From IMG/VR virus record IMGVR_UViG_3300014205_000176: 58,247 bases of DNA. One strand, written 5' to 3'. Source of the DNA: a virus. Lineage: Duplodnaviria > Heunggongvirae > Uroviricota > Caudoviricetes. Below the pieces are notes generated by a model. The model was given only the letters and a program-made list of their open reading frames with translations. It did not search any database and was not told where the DNA came from. Both the position numbers and the translations under genes were made by a program. Below are positions 1 to 32,118 of the stretch, in pieces; position 1 is the stretch's first letter; every line of letters starts with the position of its first letter.

Positions 1-10
1 AAGAGGAAGT

Positions 11-106
11 ATGCCATACGATGCTTGGTTGTTTTTAGTAGATGGAATGCGACAAGCAAGAGAACGCGGCGCATTTTATAATTGGACTGGTAGTGTTTGG
101 AAATAA
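11..106 (+). CDS. small hypothetical protein (31 aa, MPYDAWLFLVDGMRQARERGAFYNWTGSVWK)
   Basis: ATG at 11 preceded by AAGAGG; read manually because it is below the ORF track cutoff. Confidence 0.4.
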   Translation: MPYDAWLFLVDGMRQARERGAFYNWTGSVWK

Positions 107-121
107 CAACCAGCCCACCAA

Positions 122-243
122 AAACAGTCAATTCGAAGTGCTTACACGCAATTGTACAACGGTAGTACATTAGTCTGCAACACTAAATGTTGTTGGTTCA
201 AATCCAACTTGCTAATCAAAATAGCCCTTCACCTCGACTGTTT
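122..243 (+). ncRNA. Y-RNA-like stem enclosing a tRNA-Cys-like module
   Basis: AACAGTC (123-129) pairs with GACTGTT (236-242); a bulge AATTC is followed by GAAGTG pairing with CACCTC; the tRNA-like body lies inside. Confidence 0.55.
145..219 (+). tRNA. tRNA-Cys(GCA)-like, with a defective acceptor stem
   Basis: D arm GTAC/GTAC; anticodon arm TTAGT-CTGCAAC-ACTAA; T arm GTTGG-TTCAAAT-CCAAC; U73; only 4 of 7 acceptor pairs form; 3' end CAA rather than CCA. Confidence 0.7.
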
Positions 244-252
244 ATTTACTTC

Positions 253-392
253 GGCCATATACAGAGGATCGGTTCCTCACCACCCTTCCACGGTGGAGCT
301 TAACGCTCTTTCAGATTTACCACTCGCGCTCGCAAGAATGCACAAGGTAGTTCTTACACGCAATTTGGGTTCAACTCCCAATATGGCCTCTA
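253..392 (+). ncRNA. tRNA-Gly(TCC)-like RNA with a 68-nt insertion at the variable-loop position
   Basis: acceptor GGCCATA/TATGGCC; D-like arm GAGG/CCTC; anticodon arm CCACC-CTTCCAC-GGTGG; T arm TTGGG-TTCAACT-CCCAA; U73; extra sequence at 297-364. Confidence 0.6.
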
Positions 393-517
393 GGGTAGTC
401 AAATTCGAGATGCTTACACGCAATTCGCTCAATGGTTGAGCATTTTCCTTATAAGAAAACAGCATAGGTTCAATTCCTATATTACGTACCAAAACAAGCG
501 TTTCTCCTCGACTATCC
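393..517 (+). ncRNA. Y-RNA-like stem enclosing tRNA-Ile
   Basis: GGGTAGTC (393-400) pairs with GACTATCC (510-517); bulge AAATTC then GAG/CTC; TGCTT (411-415) pairs with AAGCG (496-500). Confidence 0.55.
418..491 (+). tRNA. tRNA-Ile(TAT)
   Basis: acceptor ACGCAAT/ATTACGT (one C:A mismatch); D arm GCTC/GAGC; anticodon arm TTTTC-CTTATAA-GAAAA; T arm ATAGG-TTCAATT-CCTAT; A73; encoded CCA. Confidence 0.85.
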
Positions 518-530
518 AAACTTTTTACCA

Positions 531-1031
531 ATGACGACAAACTGGGCTGAGAACGACGAATTATTCTTCTCACAACTAAAAGAAGGTTTCGAATGGCAGA
601 AATTGCCGAAACTCTTCTTCGAGTTGCACGGTTTGAAAGTTGAGATGCCCGAACTAACTATTCGGGACTCCATCGCTGATGCCGGCGCGTACATGTCTTC
701 CAAAGACCTAATCGTCAATGGGCAGACTATTGAAACCAAAAGCCGCAACGAAGCATTCACATATCCATTATCCTTTCCGTACAAAACTCTATTTGTAGAT
801 ACGGTTTCTGGATTTGATGGAAAGAAAAAGAAGCCATTAGCATATGTGTTCATCTCCAGACCAACTGGAAGTTTGATCTGCTTAATGACTTCCACAATTA
901 GTTCATGGACTATTGAAGAGAAATTCGATAGAGTGCGGAAAATCACCGACAGGTTCTACCTTGCCGATAGAAAGCTCTGCACCACGCTAGACGAACTGGT
1001 TGAAGCTCTTAAAGCCGAACCAGTAGCCTGA
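531..1031 (+). CDS. putative PD-(D/E)XK-fold nuclease
   Basis: 166-aa ORF with D-x7-ExK motif (KDLIVNGQTIETKSR). Confidence 0.5.
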   Translation: MTTNWAENDELFFSQLKEGFEWQKLPKLFFELHGLKVEMPELTIRDSIADAGAYMSSKDLIVNGQTIETKSRNEAFTYPLSFPYKTLFVDTVSGFDGKKKKPLAYVFISRPTGSLICLMTSTISSWTIEEKFDRVRKITDRFYLADRKLCTTLDELVEALKAEPVA

Positions 1032-1120: not shown

Positions 1121-1354
1121 ATGAAAAGAACACTCCTCGTATCCCTCTGCCTAATCCTAGTCAATTGCGGCGGCTCTACCTGTCCCGCAGGATCCCACGC
1201 ACCAGCAACTTCAGTTTCCACTGAGATTACTTCGGTGACCATCATTCAACCAACAGCAGGTGCTCCTTCCACAGCAGGTGCTCCTTCCACAGCAGGTGCT
1301 CCTTCCACAGCCGCAGCAGGTGCTCCAGCCACTGCCCCAGCCCAACTCATGTAG
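1121..1354 (+). CDS. putative lipoprotein with TAGAPS repeats
   Basis: MKR-hydrophobic stretch-LVNC lipobox-like signal; Ala/Pro/Thr-rich tail. Confidence 0.6.
   Translation: MKRTLLVSLCLILVNCGGSTCPAGSHAPATSVSTEITSVTIIQPTAGAPSTAGAPSTAGAPSTAAAGAPATAPAQLM
1253..1306 (+). repeat. 3 x 18-nt tandem repeat ACAGCAGGTGCTCCTTCC
   Basis: read directly; encodes TAGAPS x3. Confidence 0.95.
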
Positions 1355-19997: not shown

Positions 19998-20477
19998 ATG
20001 AAAGTCATAATTATGATGGGTCTCCCTGGTTCAGGTAAAAGCACATGGGCAAAGGCAGTTCCAGGTCTAAAAGTCATCGTATCATCTGATAGCTACTTCA
20101 CAGATGCCGATGGCAATTATAATTGGACTATTGAAGATGCTCACAAAGGCCACGAAGATTGTTTGCGCAGATTCATAGATGTATTTCAACCTGGCCCTGT
20201 TAGTGGGGATCCTGAAAAAACACCAGACATCGTAATTGTAGATAATACCAATGTTAGAATTCATGACGTTTCACCCTACATTATAATAGCCAAAGCATAC
20301 GGCTGTGATGTTGAAGTGAAGTACATGGATACTAATGTTGATAATTCCAAGACTAGGAATGTCCATGGCGTTCCGGATGCGGCCTACGATAGGATGCAGA
20401 AGAATTTCACATTCTTAATTGAGACATGGCCCAAAGATTTCCCGCCGATTGAATTTGTAACTGAACTAAGAGATTAG
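19998..20477 (+). CDS. P-loop polynucleotide-kinase-like protein (AAA_33)
   Basis: GLPGSGKST, SSDSYF, VIVDNTN, RNVHGVP. Confidence 0.85.
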   Translation: MKVIIMMGLPGSGKSTWAKAVPGLKVIVSSDSYFTDADGNYNWTIEDAHKGHEDCLRRFIDVFQPGPVSGDPEKTPDIVIVDNTNVRIHDVSPYIIIAKAYGCDVEVKYMDTNVDNSKTRNVHGVPDAAYDRMQKNFTFLIETWPKDFPPIEFVTELRD

Positions 20478-20483
20478 GTAGGA

Positions 20484-22742
20484 ATGATATTAACAACAGA
20501 AGATATGCGCGCTAGACTTAGTGAACAACCACAACTTGATATTTCAAATGAAGCTTATCGTTTTGATTGGAGCTGCTACACTGGTAATCTTAAATGGCTA
20601 CAAGATCGTACAATATACATTACTCAGCACGGGAGTCGTGCATATGGTACATCCACCCCTACCAGTGACCTTGATATCAGGGGAATTGCAATAGCCCCCA
20701 AGGAATACTATCTTGGGATGACCAATAATTTCGAGCAGGCTACGTCCAAAGACCCAGACCTGGTTATCTTTGAGTTGCGCAAGTTCCTAAAATTGGCCTC
20801 GGAGTGCAACCCTAATGCTCTGGAAATCATTTTCACCGATGAGCAGGACCACTTCTATGTCTCTAGGATAGGTAGACTACTCCTGGATAATAGAGATCTG
20901 TTCTTATCTAAGAGGGTGAAGTTCACTTTCCAAGGATATGCCAATGCTCAGATGAAGAGAATCCTTACCCATAGGCGGTGGTTGTTGAATCCAATCACTC
21001 ACCAGCCTACTCGGGAGGAATTTGGACTGCCATCTAGGACTGTAATCCCTACAGACCAGGTTATGGCTGCCAATGCTGCGGTCAAGAAGCGGATTGATGA
21101 ATGGAACTGGCACGAGATGGAGAGTCTAAGTCCATCCGTACGCCAAGAAATCCAGGATGAGTTCCTTCGGCGCATCACTGAAATCACCAACTGGAGTTTT
21201 GAAGAGGTTGATGACAAGATTTGGATGGCCGCAGCCAACAGTTTAGGGTTCTCCACGAACTTCATCGAGTTCTTAGATAAGGAAAGGCTGTACACAAACC
21301 GTTTACGGGACTGGCAGCACTTCAATGACTGGGAGAAGAACCGAAATCCTGCCCGCGCAGAGTTAGAAGCCAAGTTTGGATTCGATTGTTATTCTGAAGA
21401 TACAGAATTCCTAACCAATGATGGTTGGAAATCATTTGACAACATTACTAATGATTGTTTGTTGGCAACTGTATTTATAAAAGAAGGCATTTCCTCTAGG
21501 AGGTTTCTTGGAATTGAATATCAGAAACCTATAGATAGGTTTGATTCATTGTATTCTGGGCCGATGTATCATATTTTTGGGATACATACAGATTCATTAG
21601 TTACAGCTAATCACAGAATGTTATTTCAAAAATCCGAAAGGAAAAGTAAGAAAAAGCATGGATGGGTTCTTGAAGAGGCAGCTGTTCTTCCAGATACTTT
21701 TGATATTCTTATTGCTCCAACTCCACGAAAAACAACTTTCTCTAATAAAGAATTATTTGATGGCTTGCCGATACCTATTATGGCGTACTTGTCATTGATG
21801 GGCTGGTATTTAAGTGATGGATGCGCGACGTTTGATACAGATGGAGATATGCATGTTAAGAGCATTAGAATAAGCCAGAATCCAAATGGTAAACTTTCTA
21901 GATCTATAAAAAGGTGGAATAACAAATATGGAGAAATTGCCAATGGATCAATTCATGTTTATAAAAAACAACCAAACGAATACAACAAAGAAGAACATGA
22001 AGAGATGATTCTTGATGTTAGAAATTACAATGTTGCAATTCGTATGATTGATGAATGTGGTTATAAGGAAAATAAGAGAATCCCAAGATATATCTTCAAT
22101 TTATCTAAATCGTTGTTAGAGTGTTTTTTGCTAGCTTTGATTCGTGGTGATGGAACTACAAGGGAACATAAGGGAAAGATCGATAGTTACATTTACTATT
22201 CAAAGTTAAAAAATCTTGCCAGCGATGTTCAGGAATTGGCATTGATGGCCGGATGGGAAACTGCATTATGGGGGCCTTATTTAAATACAGATCAAGAAGG
22301 ACGTGAGTGTTTGATGTATCAAGTACACCTTAGGAAAAATCCTGGACAAACTAGAAGGCTTATTAGGTGTCAAAATGTAGAAAAGATAGAAGTAGAAAAA
22401 CAACGGATTGTATGTTTTACTGTGCCAAATGGAACTTTGATTACTAGGCGCAATGGCAAAGTTGCTATTCATGGTAATTGCAAGCACGCAATGCACCTAG
22501 TTCGCCTATCAAGATGCTGCAAAGAGCTGATGACGGACGGTATCATGCGTGTTCGAAGACCGGATGCAGAAGAACTTCTGGCCATTCGCAATGGAGCATG
22601 GACGTTTGATGAGCTTTTGGAGTGGTTCAACAGGCAAACAATAGAGATTGATGCACTCTATGAGCATTCGAAGCTTCCAAACACCCCTAACATAAAGAAG
22701 ATCAGCGAGCTGTGCGTTCAAATGGCAGAGGCATCGTGGTAA
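20484..22742 (+). CDS. Pol-beta-superfamily nucleotidyltransferase (RlaP/PF10127-like), intein-containing
   Basis: HGSRAYGTSTPTSDLDIRG, NPNALEIIF; exteins rejoin as KFGFD-C-KHAMHLVRL. Confidence 0.85.
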   Translation: MILTTEDMRARLSEQPQLDISNEAYRFDWSCYTGNLKWLQDRTIYITQHGSRAYGTSTPTSDLDIRGIAIAPKEYYLGMTNNFEQATSKDPDLVIFELRKFLKLASECNPNALEIIFTDEQDHFYVSRIGRLLLDNRDLFLSKRVKFTFQGYANAQMKRILTHRRWLLNPITHQPTREEFGLPSRTVIPTDQVMAANAAVKKRIDEWNWHEMESLSPSVRQEIQDEFLRRITEITNWSFEEVDDKIWMAAANSLGFSTNFIEFLDKERLYTNRLRDWQHFNDWEKNRNPARAELEAKFGFDCYSEDTEFLTNDGWKSFDNITNDCLLATVFIKEGISSRRFLGIEYQKPIDRFDSLYSGPMYHIFGIHTDSLVTANHRMLFQKSERKSKKKHGWVLEEAAVLPDTFDILIAPTPRKTTFSNKELFDGLPIPIMAYLSLMGWYLSDGCATFDTDGDMHVKSIRISQNPNGKLSRSIKRWNNKYGEIANGSIHVYKKQPNEYNKEEHEEMILDVRNYNVAIRMIDECGYKENKRIPRYIFNLSKSLLECFLLALIRGDGTTREHKGKIDSYIYYSKLKNLASDVQELALMAGWETALWGPYLNTDQEGRECLMYQVHLRKNPGQTRRLIRCQNVEKIEVEKQRIVCFTVPNGTLITRRNGKVAIHGNCKHAMHLVRLSRCCKELMTDGIMRVRRPDAEELLAIRNGAWTFDELLEWFNRQTIEIDALYEHSKLPNTPNIKKISELCVQMAEASW
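21387..22478 (+). mobile_element. intein with LAGLIDADG homing endonuclease (364 aa)
   Basis: starts CYSEDTEFLT, ends VAIHGN|C; LMGWYLSDG and LLALIRGDG motifs. Confidence 0.9.
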
Positions 22743-23600: not shown

Positions 23601-23845
23601 GTGCAAGAAAGCCCCTGCCTTTAGGCAGGGGATGAATTGCCAATTATTAATAAGTCGAGAGATACTAATACTACCCTAGAATATCAGATGTTTAAAGCTT
23701 TCAAATATAGAATCTATCCCAATTCTTCTTAATCAGAAGAATTAGTAAATATTCTACAATTCGACATGGAACAGGCCGAATTCAAATGCCTTGATGCCCG
23801 AAGGGCCGAAAGGAAGCCCACAGGCTAGTCCTGTGGGTAGTTCAC
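23601..23845 (+). mobile_element. miniature non-autonomous IS200/IS605 (IS1341-like, tnpB-derived) element
   Basis: left-end hairpin GCCCCTGCC-TTTA-GGCAGGGG; tnpB start MFKAFKYRIYPNSS* (23688-23732); tnpB-like 3' remnant; right-end hairpin CCCACAGG-CTAGT-CCTGTGGG followed by TAGTTCAC; left boundary uncertain by about 3 nt. Confidence 0.85.
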
Positions 23846-26268
23846 ATAACTATGGTCAGTTTATCTGTACTCCTAGTCGCGCCAGTGTATAACCAACGGC
23901 GGTAGTTGTCCTCGCTGACTGGGGCTGGTCTTTCGTTGAACAGGATGACGTTTCCCATCTGTGACCCCTGACAATTCCAGCCACAAAATCCATTTTGTAT
24001 GAATTGATTTCCCTCTGGAACTGTCACACATATAGATTCCGTATCAGATACCTCTTCAATTGAATAGATTTTTGTATGATGATAATTTAATTTCTCATTT
24101 TCACTATCAATTTTCATCAGATTATCTCTAGAAATATACCCTGCTATTTTAGAATTATTTCGTGTTGAGCTGTCTTTTATCAGATTAGCGAATTGTTTTG
24201 AAATTGGTATTCGAAATTTTCTAAAGGCCTGGAACTTAAGTAATAACCTATCATTTTTAAATGAAGAAACAAATCCAATTTTATCTTTAAATATCTTACA
24301 GTATGACCCATAAATACACAATCTATAATTATTGTTATATGGAAATATACTTGAAACGATCCCAAACCCCAACAACATTAATTGTACTATTTTTATCACA
24401 TCTAGTTTTTTATTAGAAAATTCGATATGATCTATTTTCCCGCGTTTTATATTTACCGTAGCGTCTTCAAATAAACCTTTTAAGAATTTACATCTAATAG
24501 AATTATTACATGCGAGAATACATTTTGGAATGTTTTTTGTATGTGGAGATAATCCATCTATACAAGAAAGCCAAGAAGATAGTTGGGTGGAATTTATTTC
24601 AGAGGTATACCACCCAAGTTTGTGTTCTGTTCTGCTTTCTTTAGGTTCCACACCAAATAGAACTCTACACAAATGGGAAAATCTATCTGTTACATCTTTG
24701 TGTCTTTTAGCTAATCTGAATCCTTTTTTAAAAATGCACCCGTCAGCCACCATAAGACCAAGAAATTCTGCGAAATCTTCACTAACTAAAGATGGTAAAT
24801 TATAAATTTTTGCTCTTATATCTGTGTTTATATCAGATGGTAATAGATATGTTGTTTTACAAGTAATTGGCGGCAACAGAGATATTCTAGTTATATCATT
24901 TACAGATAACTCAGCAAATGTTTTTCTTTCATAATTTCCAGAGTTAACATTCCATATATCGATACCATGATCTATTGTAGCAGTTAATGAATATCCTTCT
25001 TTAGTTTTGATTTTGAGCATTTTCTGCTTAGTTGATATTTTATTAATGTATTTTTTTTCTCCATATGGGGATAATATACTGCCACAATTTTGTATTTCAC
25101 TTATTCTTTGAAGTCCGAATTCTGTTTCTATAAATGTGTGTGGGTGAACACATTTATGAACTGTCAGGGCGTATCCGTAGTCAAAGAGCAACCCTACTTC
25201 GTTCCAGTGTTTCACTTCCATACCGAAAGTTTCAAGCTCAGAGAATGAACTGAAGGTTTTCTGGTATCCGAATTGATACTTGCAGAGATTGTTTACCTTC
25301 ACTTCAACTCCTTCATATGGAAAGTTGAGTTTGGCTGACCAGAAGTGATCATCAATCTCAGTAACTCCAGATTCAAAGTACCCGCGATATCCATTGTACA
25401 TCGGTGGTTGCTTAGAATTTACTTTTACAACGTTACGTAAGCAGATCACTAGGTCATTTGAAAGAGGTACTTGGCTTACGTTGCCAAATACAACGTTTCG
25501 AATCATGGTATTCAACCGTACCCTAGTAGCGTTCATGTAACAAAGAACTGCGCAGTCTAGAATGTCCTCTGGATCTTGGCGGCCTTTGTACACCTGCCTC
25601 AAGTAATCTACGTATTGAGACTTTGGAACGATTGAAATGTGATTATTGTCGGATAATGATGGTGGTATCTTGCCAGTTTCCCTAACCACCATAGATAAAT
25701 GTATGATTGGATTGTCCTGTGCCTGCCTATGAATCTTCTCCAAGCGCAAGATTGGAGCCTGCATTAGAGAGAACTTACCTTCAATAGGTGGTAGCTGCCC
25801 ATGATCTCCAACTGCAAGTACATCAATACCATATGAGGATAGGTCTCTGAAGATATCCTCAGAGATCATAGAGGCTTCATCAAGAACTATAACGTCATAA
25901 TCTAACTTTGGGTTCTTTGCCCAGTACACAACTTCGCCTTTATCATCTTCAATCGGTTTGTAGATGAGGCGATGAATGGTTCCGCAGTAGTGGCCGCCAT
26001 CCCCGAAGGTAATTCCCTGGGCTCGAAGCTTGGTCCCAAGGATCGATGCGGCTCTACCGGACAGTGCGCAGAAGGCAAATCGAATGGCCGTTCCAAATTC
26101 CTTTGCAAGAACCGATGTAAGCGTAGACTTACCTGAACCCGCATACCCACCCAATGTAAGTAATTGTGGGTTGGTTTGTTTGGGATGAACCTTCCCTCCA
26201 TTGGCTAGCCACCTGGCCATTATTTGGTACGCGGCCCCTTGGTCATCTGACAGAGTAATTGCGCTCAT
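23842..26268 (-). CDS. Dda/RecD2-like SF1B DNA helicase, intein-containing
   Basis: GYAGSGKST, VLDEASMI, VGDHGQLPPI, IHRQA, YALTVHK-[intein]-CQGSQ, LYTGATR; SD GGAG before the ATG at 26268. Confidence 0.92.
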   Translation of the reverse strand: MSAITLSDDQGAAYQIMARWLANGGKVHPKQTNPQLLTLGGYAGSGKSTLTSVLAKEFGTAIRFAFCALSGRAASILGTKLRAQGITFGDGGHYCGTIHRLIYKPIEDDKGEVVYWAKNPKLDYDVIVLDEASMISEDIFRDLSSYGIDVLAVGDHGQLPPIEGKFSLMQAPILRLEKIHRQAQDNPIIHLSMVVRETGKIPPSLSDNNHISIVPKSQYVDYLRQVYKGRQDPEDILDCAVLCYMNATRVRLNTMIRNVVFGNVSQVPLSNDLVICLRNVVKVNSKQPPMYNGYRGYFESGVTEIDDHFWSAKLNFPYEGVEVKVNNLCKYQFGYQKTFSSFSELETFGMEVKHWNEVGLLFDYGYALTVHKCVHPHTFIETEFGLQRISEIQNCGSILSPYGEKKYINKISTKQKMLKIKTKEGYSLTATIDHGIDIWNVNSGNYERKTFAELSVNDITRISLLPPITCKTTYLLPSDINTDIRAKIYNLPSLVSEDFAEFLGLMVADGCIFKKGFRLAKRHKDVTDRFSHLCRVLFGVEPKESRTEHKLGWYTSEINSTQLSSWLSCIDGLSPHTKNIPKCILACNNSIRCKFLKGLFEDATVNIKRGKIDHIEFSNKKLDVIKIVQLMLLGFGIVSSIFPYNNNYRLCIYGSYCKIFKDKIGFVSSFKNDRLLLKFQAFRKFRIPISKQFANLIKDSSTRNNSKIAGYISRDNLMKIDSENEKLNYHHTKIYSIEEVSDTESICVTVPEGNQFIQNGFCGWNCQGSQMGNVILFNERPAPVSEDNYRRWLYTGATRSTDKLTIVM
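23974..25152 (-). mobile_element. intein with LAGLIDADG-type homing endonuclease (393 aa)
   Basis: starts CVHPHTFIET, ends GFCGWN|C, inside the HK(S/C)QGS helicase motif; FLGLMVADG. Confidence 0.9.
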
Positions 26269-26320
26269 CCTAATTTCTCCCGCGCATCGTACACGGATCG
26301 ACCGGATATATCCAGCGATT

Positions 26321-27094
26321 ATGTCGTTTTGGAGGCCAGCAGATAGCTGTTTGTACGTAGTTTCGGACATTAATGGATTGCATAATGAACTGAAACTTAT
26401 ACTTAGTCGAATATTACCACTTAGGAAAACCGGAGGCCAAATAGATAAATTGATTCTTCTTGGTAATTACATAAGCGGAACAAGGTCACATGAAACAATT
26501 GATCTGATATTAAAAGCACAAAAGGAAACTCCAGGGCAAATCATATGTCTTCTAGGAGACAATGATCTAAAACTACTCAATTCAATTGATCCACAAGGAA
26601 CCCCAGAGGATTACGGGGCATGGCTATCGTCAGGAGGTGAAAACGCACTCCTTGGATATTTGGAACTTATAGGATCTGAACTCTCAAATCCATATCTAAT
26701 CAAACGGCAATATCTTCAAAGATTTATTCCGCAAGAACATTTAAACTTCCTGAGTTTACTTTTGCCGTATTATGAGAATGATAACTATATCTTTGTCCAT
26801 GGTGGGTGTGATCCAAATATTCCATTAGAGAAACAAAACCCATCTGTGTTAACAAAGGATAGGAGTGTATTTAATTTAGTATATAATGCCGGAAGTAGAT
26901 TTAGATGTCAATGGAATAAGACTATTATAACTGGTGGTATTGGTAAGAAGGATGGACGACCATTGGTTCATGATAAATTCATTACCCTAGATGGAAGTTA
27001 TGCCGAGAAACTCTACGTGTTGGAATTGAATTCAAGACAGATATTCTCGGCACGTAAAGGAAAGAGTAGACTTGTCAAGGAACTAATACCTTGA
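26321..27094 (+). CDS. calcineurin-like metallophosphoesterase fold with degenerate catalytic motifs
   Basis: VSDING, LGNYISG, LGDND, FVHGG correspond to DxH, GDxxDR, GNH(E/D), HGG. Confidence 0.8.
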   Translation: MSFWRPADSCLYVVSDINGLHNELKLILSRILPLRKTGGQIDKLILLGNYISGTRSHETIDLILKAQKETPGQIICLLGDNDLKLLNSIDPQGTPEDYGAWLSSGGENALLGYLELIGSELSNPYLIKRQYLQRFIPQEHLNFLSLLLPYYENDNYIFVHGGCDPNIPLEKQNPSVLTKDRSVFNLVYNAGSRFRCQWNKTIITGGIGKKDGRPLVHDKFITLDGSYAEKLYVLELNSRQIFSARKGKSRLVKELIP

Positions 27095-27148: not shown

Positions 27149-27334
27149 ATGTTTTTCAAGTACGCATCAAATCTATTACAGCACGTATCTAATGAGTGCA
27201 TGTTGAAGTCATTTGCTTGTAAGGATGATGACGCGGTAGCTCTGTATCGGAATATCTCCAGCCGAATTGATGGACTAATTCGCAGGATTGGGGTCGAGAA
27301 TACTGGTGAGATTGCGACTATCGAGAATGACTAA
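27149..27334 (+). CDS. small hypothetical protein
   Basis: 61-aa ORF directly after motif A, overlapping the topA start. Confidence 0.5.
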   Translation: MFFKYASNLLQHVSNECMLKSFACKDDDAVALYRNISSRIDGLIRRIGVENTGEIATIEND

Positions 27335-29468
27335 TGCTCTCGTCATCGTAGAATCCCCAGCAAAAAGCAAGACTATCACCAAGTACTTGGGTGTAGGATA
27401 TACGATTAGGCCTACCGGAGGCCATATCATTGATCTATCCAAAGGTCATGGTGGTGGGGACATAGGGGTGGATATCCAGAATGGTTTCAAGCCTCGTTAT
27501 GAAGTGAACCCGGATAAGAGGGACAAGATCAAATCAATAGTGGATGTGGCTAGGAATGCTGATGAAATTTTCGTTGCTTCAGATCCTGATCGTGAAGGCG
27601 AAGCTATCGCATTCCATATTGTTGACCAGTTGAAGAGTCTCAACAAACCACTAAAAAGGGTTGAATTCCATGAAATTACCGAAAAAGCTATCAGAAAAGC
27701 TATTGCTAACCCACGTCCGTTTGATCAAAACCTTTATGATGCTCAACAGGCTAGACGAGTCCTGGATCGTATTGTGGGTTTTATGGTGTCTCCTTACATT
27801 TCTCAGAAGCTTGGAGATAAACTTAGCGCCGGCCGTGTCCAATCTGTTACCCTAAGAATGATTGTAGACAGGGAAGAGGAAATTGAAGCTTTCGTTCCTG
27901 AATCTTTCTACAACATCAGCGCTACTCTATCCAACACAGAGAAGTTCGTAGCGAAATATCCTGCACGAATTGATGTCGAAAAAGAAGCGCAGAGAATCAA
28001 AGACGATCTGGACGTTTCCACATACGTGATTGATGATGTTCAGGCGAAACAGATGCTGCGTAAAGCACCTCCTCCACTAATTACCTCTACTCTGCAACAG
28101 GAAGCTTCTACTAAACTGAAGTTTGCTGGTGAGCGGACTATGAAGGCTGCTCAAGAGTTGTATGAGGCTGGCTTCATAACTTACTTACGTACCGATTCAG
28201 TTCGCAATTCCGCTGATTCAATTATAGAAGTGAGAGAGTTCCTTACAAAGAATGGGTTTGGAATTCCAGATCAGCCCAACGAATTCAAGAATAAGGACCA
28301 AGCTCAGGATGCACACGAAGCTATTCGCCCTACCCATGTAGAAAATCATCCTGATAAAGCTGCGTTGATTGGTGATCAGCAGCAGATCTATAATCTCATT
28401 TGGCGAATGTTTGTAGCTAGTCAGATGCAGCCAGCTGTTTTTGATGTGGTGAAGGTAACTGTAAAAGCTAGCAAGGGACAGCGTTTACAATCCGAGGGAA
28501 AGACTCTTCGCGAGGAAGGTTGGATGTTCATTGCTAAGGAGTTCCTCAAGAAGGATAAGGATGTAACGCTACCACCACTGGCTGTTGGGGATATGGTTAC
28601 TTTGGTTCCACCCAAGGTGAAGATGGAGAAATCTCAAACGAAGCCACCGCCACGCTATACAGAAGCCAGCTTGAATGCCGAGTTGGAGCGTAAAGAGATT
28701 GGTAGACCATCTACGTACGCAACCATCATCGCCAAAATCTCTAATCGGAAGTATGTCAAGAGCACTGCAGCTGGATTTGTCCCAACAGATCTTGGTCGGC
28801 AAGTATCTAACGATTTGAAATCTACATTCTCCTTCATGGACTACATGTATACAGCCAACATGGAGAAATCATTAGACAAGATAGCTGATGGTAAGCTTGA
28901 TTATCTGTCGATGATGACGAAGTTTTTCGATGAGTTCAAAGCGGAATTCCAGAAGGCACGAGCTGGGCAGGGACAAGTTACAGGTATTCCATGTCCCAAG
29001 TGTGGCGGAGATACTGTTCTGCGTAAGTCCAAGTATGGATTTTTCGCTGGTTGCATGAAGTATAAGGCTGGGTGTGATGGTATAGCTAATGTTTCTGTGG
29101 AGGATGGTAAAGTAATTCCAAAATCACAGAAGGCTAAGGTAGATGAAAGCGTCAAGTGTCCTGATTGCGGTGCTGGGATGGTACCAAGGCCAGACGGAAG
29201 GTTTGGCCCATTTTATTCATGTTCCAATTATCCTAAGTGTTTAGGTAAGAGGAAGATACCATTTGGTAAGAAATGTATCAAGTGCGGAAATGAATTATAT
29301 GCAACATTGATGAGTGGTAAATTGAAGTTAGCATGTATGGGATATCCTAATTGTAAGAATGTCGAGGAGTTGCCCGAAGACGCGCAGGTAAATTGGTTAG
29401 ATTATAATAAAGTAACACCTCCCGTCTATAATAAAAAAGTAGAGAAAGTTATAAAAAGCATTTCTTGA
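27327..29468 (+). CDS. topA: type IA DNA topoisomerase I with C-terminal Zn ribbons
   Basis: LVIVESPAK, ASDPDREGE, SAGRVQS, ITYLRTDS, AHEAIRPT, GRPSTYA, C4 ribbons. Confidence 0.97.
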   Translation: MTNALVIVESPAKSKTITKYLGVGYTIRPTGGHIIDLSKGHGGGDIGVDIQNGFKPRYEVNPDKRDKIKSIVDVARNADEIFVASDPDREGEAIAFHIVDQLKSLNKPLKRVEFHEITEKAIRKAIANPRPFDQNLYDAQQARRVLDRIVGFMVSPYISQKLGDKLSAGRVQSVTLRMIVDREEEIEAFVPESFYNISATLSNTEKFVAKYPARIDVEKEAQRIKDDLDVSTYVIDDVQAKQMLRKAPPPLITSTLQQEASTKLKFAGERTMKAAQELYEAGFITYLRTDSVRNSADSIIEVREFLTKNGFGIPDQPNEFKNKDQAQDAHEAIRPTHVENHPDKAALIGDQQQIYNLIWRMFVASQMQPAVFDVVKVTVKASKGQRLQSEGKTLREEGWMFIAKEFLKKDKDVTLPPLAVGDMVTLVPPKVKMEKSQTKPPPRYTEASLNAELERKEIGRPSTYATIIAKISNRKYVKSTAAGFVPTDLGRQVSNDLKSTFSFMDYMYTANMEKSLDKIADGKLDYLSMMTKFFDEFKAEFQKARAGQGQVTGIPCPKCGGDTVLRKSKYGFFAGCMKYKAGCDGIANVSVEDGKVIPKSQKAKVDESVKCPDCGAGMVPRPDGRFGPFYSCSNYPKCLGKRKIPFGKKCIKCGNELYATLMSGKLKLACMGYPNCKNVEELPEDAQVNWLDYNKVTPPVYNKKVEKVIKSIS

Positions 29469-29727: not shown

Positions 29728-32118
29728 ATGAATAGATTTTCAGAAAAGCAAATTTCCGCCCAGGAATCTCTAACATCCAAAAGACTAGAAAGCATTTCTG
29801 TTGGATATCAAAATACTTCCAGCAAATCAAGACCAGAACAGAGTCTTATCGAATTGATGCATTGGGCCAAGGACATTGTCAGTAATCAAGATCGTGGTGA
29901 TTGGGTTCCGTTTATTCACAACAAGATTAGTATTGATGGTTCATTCTTACAATTCTGCGAAGAAACTGGAGTAACTGTCAAAGCTCTTCATACCGATGCA
30001 ATTACTTCTTGGCAAAGTGACTTTCATGATGAACACTTTGTTGGAGTTGGAATATTCAACATACAAAAAGACGATCTTAAGTTCTATCATTGTGGATTAT
30101 TCCATAAGGGAAACCAGAATGAGGACGAGGTTAGCTTTTTTGTTTTGGTTAAGCGGACAGATTTTGAAGCTTATATATCCTTACGTAATGAATATGAAGC
30201 TTGGCAGAATAAGAGGGAGCGTGACAGCCAGGAGATTGAGGTTATTGGTGGTGATGCAATTCCATATGATCCGAGTACTTCTTGGGATGATATCTTCTTA
30301 CCAGATGATTTGAAGAGTAGGATTATTACTACCATCGATGGCTTCCTTGGATCTAAGGCCATTTATGAAAAGTTGAAGGTTCCGTGGCGGCGCGGGATTG
30401 GATTTTGGGGTTCTAGGGGCTGCCATGCTGCTGGTACTGGAATATTAATGTATGATGGTACAGTGAAAAAAGTTGAAGATGTGGTAGTTGGTGATTTGTT
30501 AATGGGTCCAGATTCTAAGCAACGAGAAGTTCTTAAATTAGTTTCTGGCTCTGATGAAATGTTTGAGATACAACCAACAAAATCAGATCCTTTTATTGTT
30601 AATAAGGATCATATTCTTCATCTTCGGTGCCGTAGGCCAAGACCAACCGTTCCACCAAAACTCAATATAACAGTATCAGATTTTTTAAGTCTAACTCAAA
30701 ATGCTCAAAAAAACAATTATCAAATGTGTTTGTCTCCAGCTTTAGAGTTTGGAGTTAACCAAACTCTAAAGCTGGATCCATATTTTTTGGGTATATGGCT
30801 TGGTGATGGTAGTAGTCATGAAGCATCAATTACCACAGCAGATCTTGAAATAGATAATTTTGTATGCAATTTTGCTATACAATATTCTTGTCAAGTTACG
30901 AGAACGAAATCTGTTGCTACGGCAAAATGCGATACGTTACACATAGTTAGTGGTGGGAAAAGGAATCCTATAAATGCATTATTGCGAGAGATAAACGTAT
31001 TAGATAATAAACATATACCTTACCAATATCTAACAGCATCGATTGATGATCGTTTGAAATTACTTGCAGGTATTATTGATACAGACGGTTGTTATACTAG
31101 TGTAACCTGGAGAGGAACTGAAAAATTAAACAAAAAAGGCAAAGGATATAAGGGCTATTTTGAAGTACTGCAAAAGAGTCAACAATTAACGAAAGATATA
31201 TGTTTCTTGGTTAAAAGTCTTGGGTTACAGGTAACTGTAAAGGAATGTATTAAGAATATAAAATCCATTAATTTTTCTGGTCGATATTATAGGATTGGTA
31301 TATTTGGAAATATTGAAAAGGTTCCGGTTATATTACCAAGAAAGAAAGCGATTTTGGGAAGGCCTAATAAAATGCCGTTGATCCGGGGGATTAAATCCAT
31401 TAGGAGTATGGGTGTTGGAAATTATTATGGATTTGTATTAGATAAAGATCATTTATATTTAACAGATGATTTTTATATACATCACAACTGCGGAAAAACC
31501 TCAACTCTTCGGGTAATTATGGCGCAATACCCGCAGCTAAAGCCGGTTACTATTCAGCCTGGGCATTCGACTCCTGATGAATTGTTAGAGGAAGCTTTTG
31601 AATATGCCGAGCAGCATTCCCCTGCACTTTTATTCTTTGAAGATCTGCAAGAGTTGGTTAAGACAATTGATATTCGTCATTTTCTGCAGCTTTTGGATGG
31701 ACTACAGAAGCGCGATGGCATTTTGACGGTGGTAACTGGCAATGATTTTTCTAACTTGGAAGAGAATTTGAAGAGTCGTCCGCGTCGTTTTGATAGTTTC
31801 TTTGAATTTCCATTGCCGGATGTTAATCAAACCACAAAATATCTTAATAGATATCTAGTTGATATATTACCAAGTAAGAAGATTGCAGCAATTGCAAAGA
31901 AGGCTGTTAAGAATAAACTTACCTATGCTCATTTGCAAGAGCTTTATTTCAATGCTGTATTCATCGCTATACCTGAAGGTCGAGAATTACCGAACGAGGA
32001 CAACTTAGAATTGTCTCTAAAACAAGTTTTGAAAGAAAAGAAAGCAGCAGATTCTGACTTTGCAGAGAGACAGCGTGACCTAACAGATGACGAAGAAGAG
32101 GATGGAGAGGAAATATGA
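29728..32118 (+). CDS. AAA+ ATPase, intein-containing
   Basis: Walker A GSRG-[intein]-CGKT; Walker B LLFFEDLQ; LLDG; RPRRFD. Confidence 0.88.
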   Translation: MNRFSEKQISAQESLTSKRLESISVGYQNTSSKSRPEQSLIELMHWAKDIVSNQDRGDWVPFIHNKISIDGSFLQFCEETGVTVKALHTDAITSWQSDFHDEHFVGVGIFNIQKDDLKFYHCGLFHKGNQNEDEVSFFVLVKRTDFEAYISLRNEYEAWQNKRERDSQEIEVIGGDAIPYDPSTSWDDIFLPDDLKSRIITTIDGFLGSKAIYEKLKVPWRRGIGFWGSRGCHAAGTGILMYDGTVKKVEDVVVGDLLMGPDSKQREVLKLVSGSDEMFEIQPTKSDPFIVNKDHILHLRCRRPRPTVPPKLNITVSDFLSLTQNAQKNNYQMCLSPALEFGVNQTLKLDPYFLGIWLGDGSSHEASITTADLEIDNFVCNFAIQYSCQVTRTKSVATAKCDTLHIVSGGKRNPINALLREINVLDNKHIPYQYLTASIDDRLKLLAGIIDTDGCYTSVTWRGTEKLNKKGKGYKGYFEVLQKSQQLTKDICFLVKSLGLQVTVKECIKNIKSINFSGRYYRIGIFGNIEKVPVILPRKKAILGRPNKMPLIRGIKSIRSMGVGNYYGFVLDKDHLYLTDDFYIHHNCGKTSTLRVIMAQYPQLKPVTIQPGHSTPDELLEEAFEYAEQHSPALLFFEDLQELVKTIDIRHFLQLLDGLQKRDGILTVVTGNDFSNLEENLKSRPRRFDSFFEFPLPDVNQTTKYLNRYLVDILPSKKIAAIAKKAVKNKLTYAHLQELYFNAVFIAIPEGRELPNEDNLELSLKQVLKEKKAADSDFAERQRDLTDDEEEDGEEI
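30421..31488 (+). mobile_element. intein with LAGLIDADG homing endonuclease (356 aa)
   Basis: starts CHAAGTGILMYDG, ends YIHHN|C; FLGIWLGDG and LLAGIIDTDG. Confidence 0.93.

What the first reader, a model, noticed from the sequence alone, without database searches (positions are those of the whole stretch)
122..517. tRNAs enclosed in Y-RNA-like stems and sharing an exact 13-nt motif: a candidate new phage RNA class
Seen: two cassettes (122-243 and 393-517) share one architecture. An outer stem 5'-..AGTC [A-rich bulge ending in C] GA(A/G) pairs with 3'-CTC GACT... Inside it come (T)GCTTACACGCAATT, a tRNA body (Cys-GCA or Ile-TAT), then (C)CAAAA and the closing strand. The outer stems differ in sequence but keep pairing (AACAGTC/GACTGTT versus GGGTAGTC/GACTATCC), which is covariation. 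The 13-mer supplies the 5' acceptor strand even though it breaks pairing (3 mismatches in Cys, 1 in Ile), so the motif appears to be selected over tRNA function. Established: the Ro60/Rsr-binding helix of Y RNAs is 5'-GUC-C(bulged)-GAAG pairing with 3'-CUU-GAC, and bacterial YrlA RNAs fuse a tRNA-like domain to that helix. In YrlA the helix replaces the anticodon arm. Inference: this is the inverse topology, a whole tRNA carried as cargo within a Y-like stem. It could be a Ro60-tethered tRNA decoy or sponge for host anticodon nucleases, a tRNA reservoir released by processing at ACACGCAA, or a substrate for an RNA-repair system (kinase and RlaP genes lie at 19998-22742).
Basis: partly seen in the sequence, partly recalled or inferred. 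Interest (0 to 1): 0.9.

Follow-up and report, generated by a model that had tools for sequence, protein, structure and literature searches.

The report
tRNA mimics clamped in Y-RNA-like stems
The two cassettes are real members of a conserved, apparently undescribed family of tRNA-shaped RNAs held in a stem-bulge-stem clamp, and in giant phages and myxobacteria they always sit beside a divergent Ro60-like protein gene, so they look like a new kind of Y RNA.

Summary
Window 122-517 holds three RNAs, not two. Two are tRNA cloverleaves (Cys-GCA, Ile-UAU) clamped between a 7-bp terminal stem, a conserved internal loop and an 8-9-bp second helix ("type A"). Between them lies a Gly-UCC tRNA-like RNA (253-389) that carries the same module as a closed extra arm just 5' of its T arm ("type B").

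The shared 13-mer is a lineage-specific version of a family-wide motif, YWYACAMG. Other near-invariant elements are CAG and CUC-G. Both helices covary strongly in 28 type B and 28 type A copies.

The family occurs in giant-phage tRNA regions and in Myxococcota. In 11-12 Mb bacterial genomes, every strong type A match lies within a few kb of one gene. That gene encodes a 619-aa helical-repeat + vWA protein whose N-terminal domain best matches Ro60/Rsr by structure, although Pfam TROVE does not detect it.

Best reading: a new variant of Ro60-Y RNA systems that displays tRNA mimics. Binding and function are untested. This scan has noted the same protein-RNA module before on other DNA.

The parts
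123..129 (+). Type A cassette 1: distal (terminal) stem, 5' strand AACAGTC
   Evidence: Pairs with 236-242 in the MFE folds. All 7 positions covary across 28 homologues.
130..133 (+). Cassette 1: A-rich 5' strand of the internal loop (AATT, followed by an unpaired C at 134)
   Evidence: Conserved A-rich loop, consensus AAMYM, in types A and B.
134..142 (+). Cassette 1: helix H2, 5' strand (CGAAGTGCT), overlapping the start of the motif
   Evidence: Pairs with 223-231, 7 of 9 pairs. H2 positions 2-9 covary.
141..153 (+). 13-mer copy 1. The family-wide core is CTTACACG (141-148), single-stranded after the CU
   Evidence: Exact repeat. ACA and G are invariant in 28 type B and 15 type A copies.
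148..212 (+). tRNA-like body with anticodon loop CUGCAAC (Cys-GCA) and only a 4-bp acceptor helix (GCAA/UUGC)
   Evidence: Rfam RF00005 at 51 bits, model positions 4-67. ARAGORN does not call it.
215..222 (+). Cassette 1: A/C-rich 3' junction strand (ATCAAAAT)
   Evidence: Conserved CAAAA...CA(G/A) element preceding H2.
223..231 (+). Cassette 1: helix H2, 3' strand (AGCCCTTCA)
232..235 (+). Cassette 1: 3' strand of the internal loop (CCTC). CUC is invariant and is followed by the G of the distal stem
   Evidence: CTC invariant in 15 of 15 type A copies. TCG invariant in 28 of 28 type B copies.
236..242 (+). Cassette 1: distal stem, 3' strand GACTGTT
253..389 (+). Type B RNA. A tRNA-like RNA with acceptor 253-259/382-388, anticodon loop CUUCCAC (Gly-UCC) at 285-291 and T arm 365-381. 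The same module forms a closed extra arm: H2 313-321/346-354, loops 322-325 and 342-345, distal hairpin 326-341, motif 353-360
   Evidence: MFE fold z -4.5. Model R1 scores 52.4 bits (this copy is in the model). 10 of 11 arm pairs show compensatory changes.
394..400 (+). Type A cassette 2: distal stem, 5' strand GGTAGTC
   Evidence: Pairs with 510-516.
401..405 (+). Cassette 2: A-rich internal-loop strand AAATT
406..414 (+). Cassette 2: H2 5' strand CGAGATGCT
   Evidence: Pairs with 497-505, 8 of 9 pairs.
413..425 (+). 13-mer copy 3 (core 413-420). ACGCAAT doubles as the 5' acceptor strand
418..491 (+). tRNA-like body with anticodon loop CUUAUAA (Ile-UAU). Six of 7 acceptor pairs form, and the 3' end reads A-CCA
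   Evidence: ARAGORN and Rfam at 61.9 bits. The orthologous cassettes in L117 and L118 carry loop CUAUCAC instead.
497..509 (+). Cassette 2: H2 3' strand (497-505) and loop CCTC (506-509)
510..516 (+). Cassette 2: distal stem, 3' strand GACTATC

Best explanation
Window 122-517 is a three-gene array of small RNAs from one conserved family. Each RNA joins a tRNA-shaped domain to the same roughly 60-nt module. The module consists of a distal stem, a conserved internal loop (an A-rich strand opposite N-CUC), a second helix H2, and two conserved A/C-rich junction strands (UACAMG and CAAAA..CAG). In the two flagged cassettes the distal stem is formed by the RNA's own 5' and 3' ends, and H2 clamps the acceptor end of a complete cloverleaf. 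In the middle RNA the same module is a closed arm in the variable region. I infer that the module is the docking site for the divergent Ro60-like (helical-repeat ring + vWA) protein encoded a few kb away, and that the RNAs act as its Y-RNA equivalents. On this reading they display tRNA look-alikes with intact, variable anticodon loops and do not serve as ordinary decoders. Shown: the family, its structure and covariation, its permuted connectivities, its gene linkage, and the structural likeness of the protein to Ro60. Inferred: protein binding, and the mimic or sentinel role.
For: Structure. MFE folds of every copy give the same stem-loop-stem. In the type B arm 89.9% of cells are paired against 68.4% in shuffles (0 of 500 reach the observed value), the covariation score is 0.742 against 0.306, slid controls give 28-52%, and 10 of 11 pairs show compensatory changes. 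In type A, cognate strands form 6.93 of 7 distal pairs and 7.71 of 9 H2 pairs, against 4.15 and 5.47 for non-cognate strands, with 25 distinct strands.

Linkage. Nine of 10 viral records found through the RNA motif alone encode a 55-62% identical homologue of the 619-aa protein. All 16 R1 matches in five 240-536 kb phage records lie on the gene's strand within about 9 kb of it. In the 25 loci fetched by the protein from bacterial genomes and MAGs, all 13 R1 hits and all 18 full-length R2 hits of 65 bits or more lie on the gene's strand, often directly upstream. In four 11-12 Mb Myxococcota genomes, the only R2 matches at E <= 1e-10 are the 1-3 copies beside that gene.

Protein. The full-length model's 11 best Foldseek PDB hits are Ro60/Rsr. 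An exhaustive search with the N-terminal domain alone ranks Deinococcus Rsr (Z 9.6), phage phiLo Ro60 (Z 8.8) and Xenopus Ro (Z 7.4) first, and the next hit scores Z 5.4.

Mimic rather than decoder. Bacterial copies have 3-bp acceptor helices. Orthologous cassettes differ at 4 of 7 anticodon-loop bases but at only 9% of positions elsewhere.

Context. RtcB, a Thg1-like gene, JAB and ThiF/E1 genes lie upstream of the array in the near relative G001.
Against: No binding or expression data exist. Pfam TROVE does not detect the protein. Foldseek with the N-terminal domain alone gives no significant hit. The structural matches have large rmsd (16-19 A) and low TM (0.24-0.33). Rfam Y_RNA and YrlA do not match the RNAs. 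The Ro60-type CGAA motif is present in the window's lineage but is not conserved across the family. The giant phages are related to one another, so their co-occurrence counts are not independent, and some 'bacterial' MAG contigs rich in tRNAs may be mis-binned phage. The partner could be another gene of the cassette (Ubl, E1, JAB or Zn-ribbon). The window's own genome upstream of position 1 could not be read here. The gene neighbourhood is therefore inferred from relatives that share the same array and an 86-88% identical flanking ORF.
Confidence: 0.62

Rival explanations
1. The cassettes are ordinary phage pre-tRNAs. On this reading the leader-trailer duplex is only a processing or stability signal (RNase III, E or P), removed to release working tRNA-Cys and tRNA-Ile.
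For: The Ile cassette has 6 of 7 acceptor pairs and an encoded A-CCA. Some homologues (L214:6240, L172, L132) start G1-C72 directly after the motif and encode CCA. The elements sit in tRNA arrays in giant phages.
Against: The Cys cassette has only 4 acceptor pairs, and bacterial copies have 3. The same module is internal in type B RNAs, where end-trimming cannot remove it. In 11-12 Mb bacterial genomes the RNAs occur only beside the Ro60-like gene, not at tRNA loci in general. The anticodon changes between orthologues. Class I bodies carry Ser or Leu anticodons.
Confidence: 0.15
2. The module is a small self-cleaving ribozyme or an intron-like element. Split around the tRNA it would release or circularise it, and inserted in the variable loop it would be spliced out, with RtcB and the Thg1-like enzyme healing the ends.
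For: The same motif occurs in circularly permuted connectivities, as hammerhead and twister ribozymes do. It has invariant unpaired nucleotides. RtcB and Thg1-like genes lie nearby in G001. There is precedent for ribozyme-processed phage tRNAs (theta ribozymes, PMC10879173).
Against: No known ribozyme family matches even at E <= 10. Removing the module from type B would still leave an abnormal variable region. Acceptor mismatches are not confined to positions 1-3, as Thg1-type 5' editing would require (Ile has C.A at pair 4). The tight linkage is to the Ro60-like gene, not to ligase genes.
Confidence: 0.07
3. The cassettes are canonical Y RNA/YrlA family members, as the first reader's strict reading would have it.
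For: They have a terminal stem-bulge-stem, with UUCGAAG or UUCGAGA at the bulge resembling GNCGAAN0-1G. They have a tRNA-like domain and a neighbouring Ro60-like gene.
Against: No Rfam Y_RNA or YrlA hit was found. The sub-threshold YrlA hits in relatives span two adjacent tRNAs and are artefacts. The topology differs, since the stem joins the acceptor end or the variable region, not the anticodon position. The internal loop is about 5x5 nt, not a one-base bulge. CGAA is not conserved family-wide.
Confidence: 0.04
4. The repeat works at the DNA level (iterons, recombination sites or promoters), or the RNA is a cis-acting leader of the adjacent gene.
For: Three exact 13-mers lie in a 520-bp non-coding stretch at a gene boundary. 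In several bacteria the RNAs lie directly upstream of the Ro60-like gene.
Against: Conservation follows RNA base-pairing with compensatory changes, not DNA sequence. Position relative to the gene varies: upstream, downstream, or 3-9 kb away. No promoter-like site was found in 1-600.
Confidence: 0.03

Closest known systems
YrlA, the bacterial and phage Y RNA with a tRNA-like domain (Rfam RF02553; Chen et al. 2014, PMC4201824)
   Same: A small RNA encoded within a few kb of, and on the same strand as, a Ro60-type gene. It combines a protein-binding stem with a tRNA-like domain (D and T arms with tRNA tertiary-pair nucleotides). A YUAY-type element precedes the T-arm side. RtcB is often nearby.
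   Different: In YrlA the stem replaces the anticodon arm and the acceptor is closed by a loop. Here the anticodon arm is intact and variable, and the module joins either the acceptor end (type A) or the variable region (type B). The conserved signature also differs (CUC-G, CAG, YWYACAMG; a roughly 5x5 loop). The YrlA model does not match. The partner protein escapes Pfam TROVE.
Thermus phage phiLo Ro60 with Yrl1/Yrl2 (PMC12135203; PDB 9KOP, 9L5Y)
   Same: A phage-encoded Ro60 homologue with adjacent Y-like RNAs that have a 5'-3' stem flanking an internal bulge with CGAA. phiLo Ro60 is the second-best structural match of the partner's N-terminal domain (Z 8.8).
   Different: The phiLo RNAs were described without a tRNA cloverleaf. 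Binding was shown there by EMSA and cryo-EM, whereas nothing has been tested for this family.
Metazoan Y RNAs (Rfam RF00019) bound by Ro60
   Same: The terminal stem is formed by the RNA's 5' and 3' ends, and a conserved bulged helix acts as the protein site. In the window's lineage the letters GUC...CGAAG / CUUC...GAC resemble it.
   Different: Metazoan Y RNAs have a one-base C bulge, against a 4-6 x 4-5 nt loop here. The letter resemblance is not conserved in the family. Metazoan Y RNAs carry no tRNA domain. No Rfam match was found.
Class II and irregular long-variable-arm tRNAs (allo-tRNAs, Mukai et al. 2017, PMC5389517; cited from earlier scan notes and not read here)
   Same: Type B RNAs are cloverleaves with an extra arm emerging between the anticodon and T arms.
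   Different: The arm here is 40-45 nt long, with a conserved internal loop and 7-12 conserved single-stranded nucleotides before the T stem. Many copies have non-canonical anticodon loops (A33, or 8 nt). The same arm sequence module also occurs split around whole tRNAs.

Membership tests
tRNA (Rfam RF00005), functional decoder | Cloverleaf with D, anticodon and T arms and conserved tertiary nucleotides | tested here: met
   51 and 61.9 bits against a gathering score of 29.
tRNA (Rfam RF00005), functional decoder | Seven-bp acceptor stem with free 5' end and N73-CCA 3' end | tested here: not met
   Cys has 4 pairs and no CCA. Ile has 6 of 7 pairs and an encoded ACCA, but both ends are buried in H2 and the distal stem. 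Bacterial members have 3 pairs.
tRNA (Rfam RF00005), functional decoder | Aminoacylation and use in translation | not testable with these tools
   Needs acid-gel Northern blots or charging assays.
Y RNA / YrlA (Rfam RF00019, RF02553) | Significant match to the family covariance model | tested here: not met
   No hit at E <= 10 in window 1-700. Sub-threshold YrlA hits in relatives (30 bits or less, against 69) span two neighbouring tRNAs.
Y RNA / YrlA (Rfam RF00019, RF02553) | Encoded near a Ro60 orthologue, on the same strand | tested here: met
   Met for a divergent Ro60-like gene in relatives and bacteria.
Y RNA / YrlA (Rfam RF00019, RF02553) | Terminal 5'-3' stem with a bulge carrying GNCGAAN0-1G / CGAA on the 5' strand | tested here: inconclusive
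   The stem-loop-stem is met. UUCGAAG and UUCGAGA are present in the window, but the motif is absent from many family members.
Y RNA / YrlA (Rfam RF00019, RF02553) | tRNA-like domain attached through the anticodon-stem position, with the acceptor closed by a loop | tested here: not met
   Type A is attached at the acceptor end and type B at the variable region. One YrlA-like permuted variant was seen in L172.
Y RNA / YrlA (Rfam RF00019, RF02553) | Physical binding to Ro60 | not testable with these tools
   Needs RIP, EMSA or a solved structure.
Ro60/TROVE protein (the inferred partner, L234:10884-12743 in relative G001) | Pfam TROVE (PF05731) match | tested here: not met
   No hit in five phage records, nor in 8 homologues even at E <= 10.
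Ro60/TROVE protein (the inferred partner, L234:10884-12743 in relative G001) | Helical-repeat ring domain followed by a vWA domain with MIDAS | tested here: inconclusive
   The vWA domain is clear (Pfam E 2.7e-8; Z about 14). With the N-terminal domain alone, Ro60 entries take ranks 1-3 of 48,161 chains (Z 9.6, 8.8, 7.4; next 5.4), but rmsd is 16-19 A, and Foldseek with the same domain is not significant. There is an extra N-terminal beta domain.
Known small self-cleaving ribozymes (hammerhead, twister, pistol, hatchet, HDV-like) | Match to the family model or its conserved core | tested here: not met
   No such Rfam hit at E <= 10.

The most novel reading that the evidence does not exclude
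The RNAs could be sentinel or bait tRNAs. A Ro60-like ring would hold a panel of authentic anticodon stem-loops (here Cys, Gly and Ile; elsewhere Asp, Asn, Lys, Arg and others) by a common clamp. tRNA-targeting enzymes such as anticodon nucleases would then be captured, sensed or handed to the co-encoded ubiquitin-like tagging (E1/JAB) and RNA-repair (RtcB, Thg1-like) machinery. This would be an RNA-guided 'tRNA surveillance' RNP shared by Myxococcota and giant phages.
Probability: 0.15. Interest if true: 0.9.

Novelty: new variant of a known kind. Interest (0 to 1): 0.7.

Why it matters
Y RNAs and Ro60 are conserved from bacteria to humans, yet the purpose of the tRNA-like part of bacterial Y RNAs is still unknown. 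This family attaches one protein-docking module to tRNA shapes in two main connectivities plus a single YrlA-like permuted variant. It keeps the anticodon arm intact and lets it vary between copies and between orthologues. That points to the anticodon end as the functional surface. The family also has a culturable host (Paraliomyxa miuraensis SMH-27-4) in which the RNP, its link to a ubiquitin-like system and its role in phage-host tRNA conflicts can be tested directly. A practical consequence is that tRNA finders will mis-annotate these genes as odd tRNAs such as Asp-AUC, or short-armed Ser-UGA and Leu-UAA.

Tried and rejected
- blastn of window 1-600 against INPHARED phages gave no match.
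- The window's own whole genome is not held, so its upstream genes could not be read.
- A 14-mer scan of IMG/VR returned mostly chance hits. Only 2 of 116 loci were homologous.
- A single-protein search with the downstream ORF found only close relatives.
- Rfam at gathering and at E <= 10 gave only tRNA hits.
- YrlA model hits in giant phages turned out to span adjacent tRNAs.
- Pfam TROVE was not found.
- A PDB sequence-profile search found only vWA domains.
- Foldseek with the N-terminal domain alone gave nothing significant. The VIA second look at the full-length model was filled by vWA matches.
- Sequencing runs: no RNA holder listed. The DNA holders are landfill, groundwater and other environmental metagenomes.
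- Considered and set aside: Thg1-type 5' editing of acceptor positions 1-3, because the mismatch positions do not fit; a pseudoknot between ACACG and CGUG-like segments, which is not conserved; K-turn or BHB readings of the loop, for which the geometry does not fit; integron attC-like sites; and a mini-tmRNA reading of the G3:U70 RNA in relatives, which was not pursued.
- The promoter/terminator scan of 1-1100 was uninformative.
- Literature searches found no description of this RNA family or of a Ro60-ubiquitin-like coupling.

Full report
**What is in the window**

Positions 122-517 are non-coding and lie just before an unassigned 166-aa ORF (531-1031).

Rfam finds two tRNA-like bodies. One is at 148-212 (51 bits) and matches only model positions 4-67. 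The other is at 418-488 (61.9 bits). ARAGORN calls only the second, as Ile-UAU.

The exact 13-mer CTTACACGCAATT occurs three times, at 141, 353 and 413. The finding mentions two. The third copy lies in a 137-nt tRNA-like RNA (253-389). That RNA has a GGCCATA/TATGGCC acceptor, a Gly-UCC anticodon loop and a long insertion that ends in the 13-mer just before the T arm.

In Cys, only GCAA/UUGC pair. In Ile there is one C.A mismatch.

**Anatomy**

Each flagged cassette folds as follows:
- a 7-bp distal stem made by the two ends (123-129/236-242; 394-400/510-516);
- an internal loop, with AA(A)UU(C) opposite (N)CCUC;
- a second 8-9-bp helix H2 (134-142/223-231; 406-414/497-505), which runs into the first bases of the 13-mer.

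Inside H2 come single-stranded UACACGC, then the cloverleaf, then an A/C-rich strand (CAAAA...).

CUC is invariant and unpaired. GARR pairs with YUUC.

**The family**

A motif scan of IMG/VR and follow-up searches found the same architecture in two near relatives (L117/G001 and L118/G002). It also occurs in distant giant-phage records of 240-536 kb.

Two main connectivities exist:
- **Type A** (the flagged cassettes): distal5'-loop-H2a-YWYACAMG-[tRNA]-CAAAA..CAG-H2b-NCUC-distal3'.
- **Type B** (window 253-389): the identical module, closed by a hairpin, inserted between the anticodon arm and the T arm.

One copy in L172 shows a YrlA-like permuted order.

The family-wide conserved element is not the 13-mer. 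It is an 8-mer core with invariant ACA and G, plus CAG and CUC-G.

**Is the structure real?**

For 28 type B arms:
- 10 of 11 pairs show compensatory changes;
- 89.9% of cells are paired, against 68.4% in shuffles (0 of 500 shuffles reach this);
- the covariation score is 0.742 against 0.306;
- sliding the partner by 1-3 columns drops pairing to 28-52%.

For 28 type A copies with 25 distinct strands, cognate strands form 6.93 of 7 distal pairs and 7.71 of 9 H2 pairs. Non-cognate combinations form 4.15 and 5.47. Every distal and H2 position shows several Watson-Crick pair types.

**Gene context**

In G001 the array and an 88% identical flanking ORF are the same as in the window. The 20 kb upstream there encodes a Thg1-like protein, RtcB, a 619-aa protein with a C-terminal vWA domain, a JAB-like peptidase, a Zn-ribbon protein, a ThiF-type E1 and a nucleoside hydrolase.

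Homologues of the 619-aa protein (55-62% identity) are present in 9 of the 10 viral records that I had found through the RNA motif alone. One of these is a 5.5-kb contig.

With covariance model R1 (the type B arm), all 16 matches in five giant-phage records lie on the gene's strand within about 9 kb of it.

**Test outside the phage clade**

Because the phages are related to each other, I looked for the protein in bacterial genomes. This gave 25 loci, mostly Myxococcota and including the isolate Paraliomyxa miuraensis.

- All 13 R1 hits in these loci are on the gene's strand, often directly upstream: three copies in L254, and two each in L259, L249 and L264.
- Type A model R2 gives 18 full-length matches of 65 bits or more in 11 of these loci, all on the gene's strand.
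- In four whole genomes of 11-12 Mb, the only R2 matches at E <= 1e-10 are the one to three copies beside this gene.

This is the same kind of evidence that defined YrlA (PMC4201824).

**The protein**

Pfam sees only the vWA domain.

An AlphaFold model of the full protein (pLDDT 74) has Ro60/Rsr entries as its 11 best Foldseek matches. These are full-length alignments but with low TM (0.24-0.33).

The N-terminal 410 residues alone (pLDDT 82) give no significant Foldseek hit. An exhaustive alignment against 48,161 PDB representatives, however, ranks three Ro60 entries first:
- Deinococcus Rsr, Z 9.6;
- Thermus phage phiLo Ro60, Z 8.8;
- Xenopus Ro60, Z 7.4.

The next hit scores Z 5.4. The rmsd values are large, 16-19 A.

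I read this protein as a divergent Ro60-like protein with an extra N-terminal beta domain. Its membership of the family is probable but not established.

**Decoders or mimics?**

- Bacterial type A copies have only a 3-bp acceptor helix, and the window's Cys copy has four pairs.
- The orthologue of the window's Ile cassette in L117 and L118 is 84% and 91% identical outside the anticodon loop, but differs at 4 of 7 loop bases (UAU against AUC).
- Several copies combine short-armed class I bodies with Ser or Leu anticodons, and many type B loops have A33 or 8 nt.

These features fit displayed tRNA look-alikes better than working tRNAs. The window's Ile copy (6 of 7 pairs, encoded ACCA) could still be matured.

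**Comparison with known systems**

The closest known system is Ro60 with Y RNAs, especially YrlA.

Shared features:
- gene linkage and strand;
- a terminal stem-bulge-stem;
- a tRNA-like domain;
- in the window's lineage, a CGAA/CGAG at the bulge (PMC4201824; PMC12135203).

Differences:
- no Rfam match, and the weak YrlA hits in relatives are artefacts of adjacent tRNAs;
- a roughly 5x5 loop with a different conserved signature;
- attachment at the acceptor end or the variable region, not the anticodon position;
- a partner protein outside Pfam TROVE;
- coupling to ubiquitin-like genes.

I found no paper describing this RNA family. Jumbo-phage reviews mention only that some phages carry a TROVE protein with a tRNA-like partner.

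Earlier notes of this scan had flagged the Ro60-like/ubiquitin-like cassette and "extra-armed tRNA-like RNAs" on other DNA and upstream in this same genome. I used them as leads and re-tested the linkage independently here.

**Verdict**

- The Y-RNA-like interpretation is partly supported. It is right about the kind of system and wrong about the specific pairing and about family membership.
- The kinase/RlaP genes at 19998-22742 are real but show no link to the RNAs.
- Most likely mechanism (confidence about 0.6): the module docks the Ro60-like protein, and the clamped tRNA shapes act as mimics.
- Rivals: plain pre-tRNA processing stems (0.15), and a ribozyme or intron-like element (0.07).
- Nothing about binding, processing or function has been measured.

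Noticed in passing
window 253-389: A third RNA between the two cassettes. It is a tRNA-Gly(UCC)-like cloverleaf carrying the same module as a closed extra arm. The same Gly-like loop CUUCCAC recurs in distant giant phages (L123, L172, L214).
   Followed up: yes
L118:3603-3700 and L117:2263-2360: A roughly 110-nt RNA with a GGGGCUA/UAGCUCC acceptor (G3:U70, the alanine identity pair), an encoded ACCA in L118, a T arm and the module, but no D or anticodon arm. It resembles a tmRNA-type tRNA-like domain. ARAGORN does not call it.
   Followed up: no
L172:5430-5600 (minus strand): A circularly permuted variant in the order T arm, acceptor 3' strand with CCA, linker hairpin, acceptor 5' strand, D arm and anticodon arm. 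It is enclosed by a 9-bp outer stem, which is the YrlA-like topology.
   Followed up: partly
L172, L214, L117, L118, L199, L128, L132 tRNA arrays: Anticodons with A34 recur (AUC, AUU, AUA, AAC), many of them inside type A clamps. These are the queuosine-family (GUN) anticodons with G34 replaced by A.
   Followed up: no
window 23842-26370 (-) and 29728-32118 (+): Two intein-bearing genes. One is an SF1 helicase with an intein splicing domain and a LAGLIDADG endonuclease. The other is an AAA ATPase with a Hint domain.
   Followed up: no
window 19998-22742: An AAA_33 (polynucleotide-kinase-like) gene followed by a 752-aa RlaP nucleotidyltransferase. These are RNA-repair-type genes 20 kb from the RNAs, with no demonstrated link to them.
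   Followed up: partly
window 27288-29468: A full-length bacterial-type topoisomerase I/III (Toprim, Topoisom_bac and Zn ribbons) encoded by the phage.
   Followed up: no
window 1258-1312: An 18-nt unit (ACAGCAGGTGCTCCTTCC) repeated three times in tandem within the short ORF that starts at about 1121 (ATG) with a lipoprotein-like N-terminus.
   Followed up: no
L234:10884-19221 (relative G001): The cassette upstream of the RNA array contains, in order, the Ro60-like vWA protein, small ORFs, a JAB-like peptidase, a Zn-ribbon protein, a ThiF-type E1 and an inosine-uridine nucleoside hydrolase, with Thg1-like and RtcB genes further upstream.
   Followed up: partly
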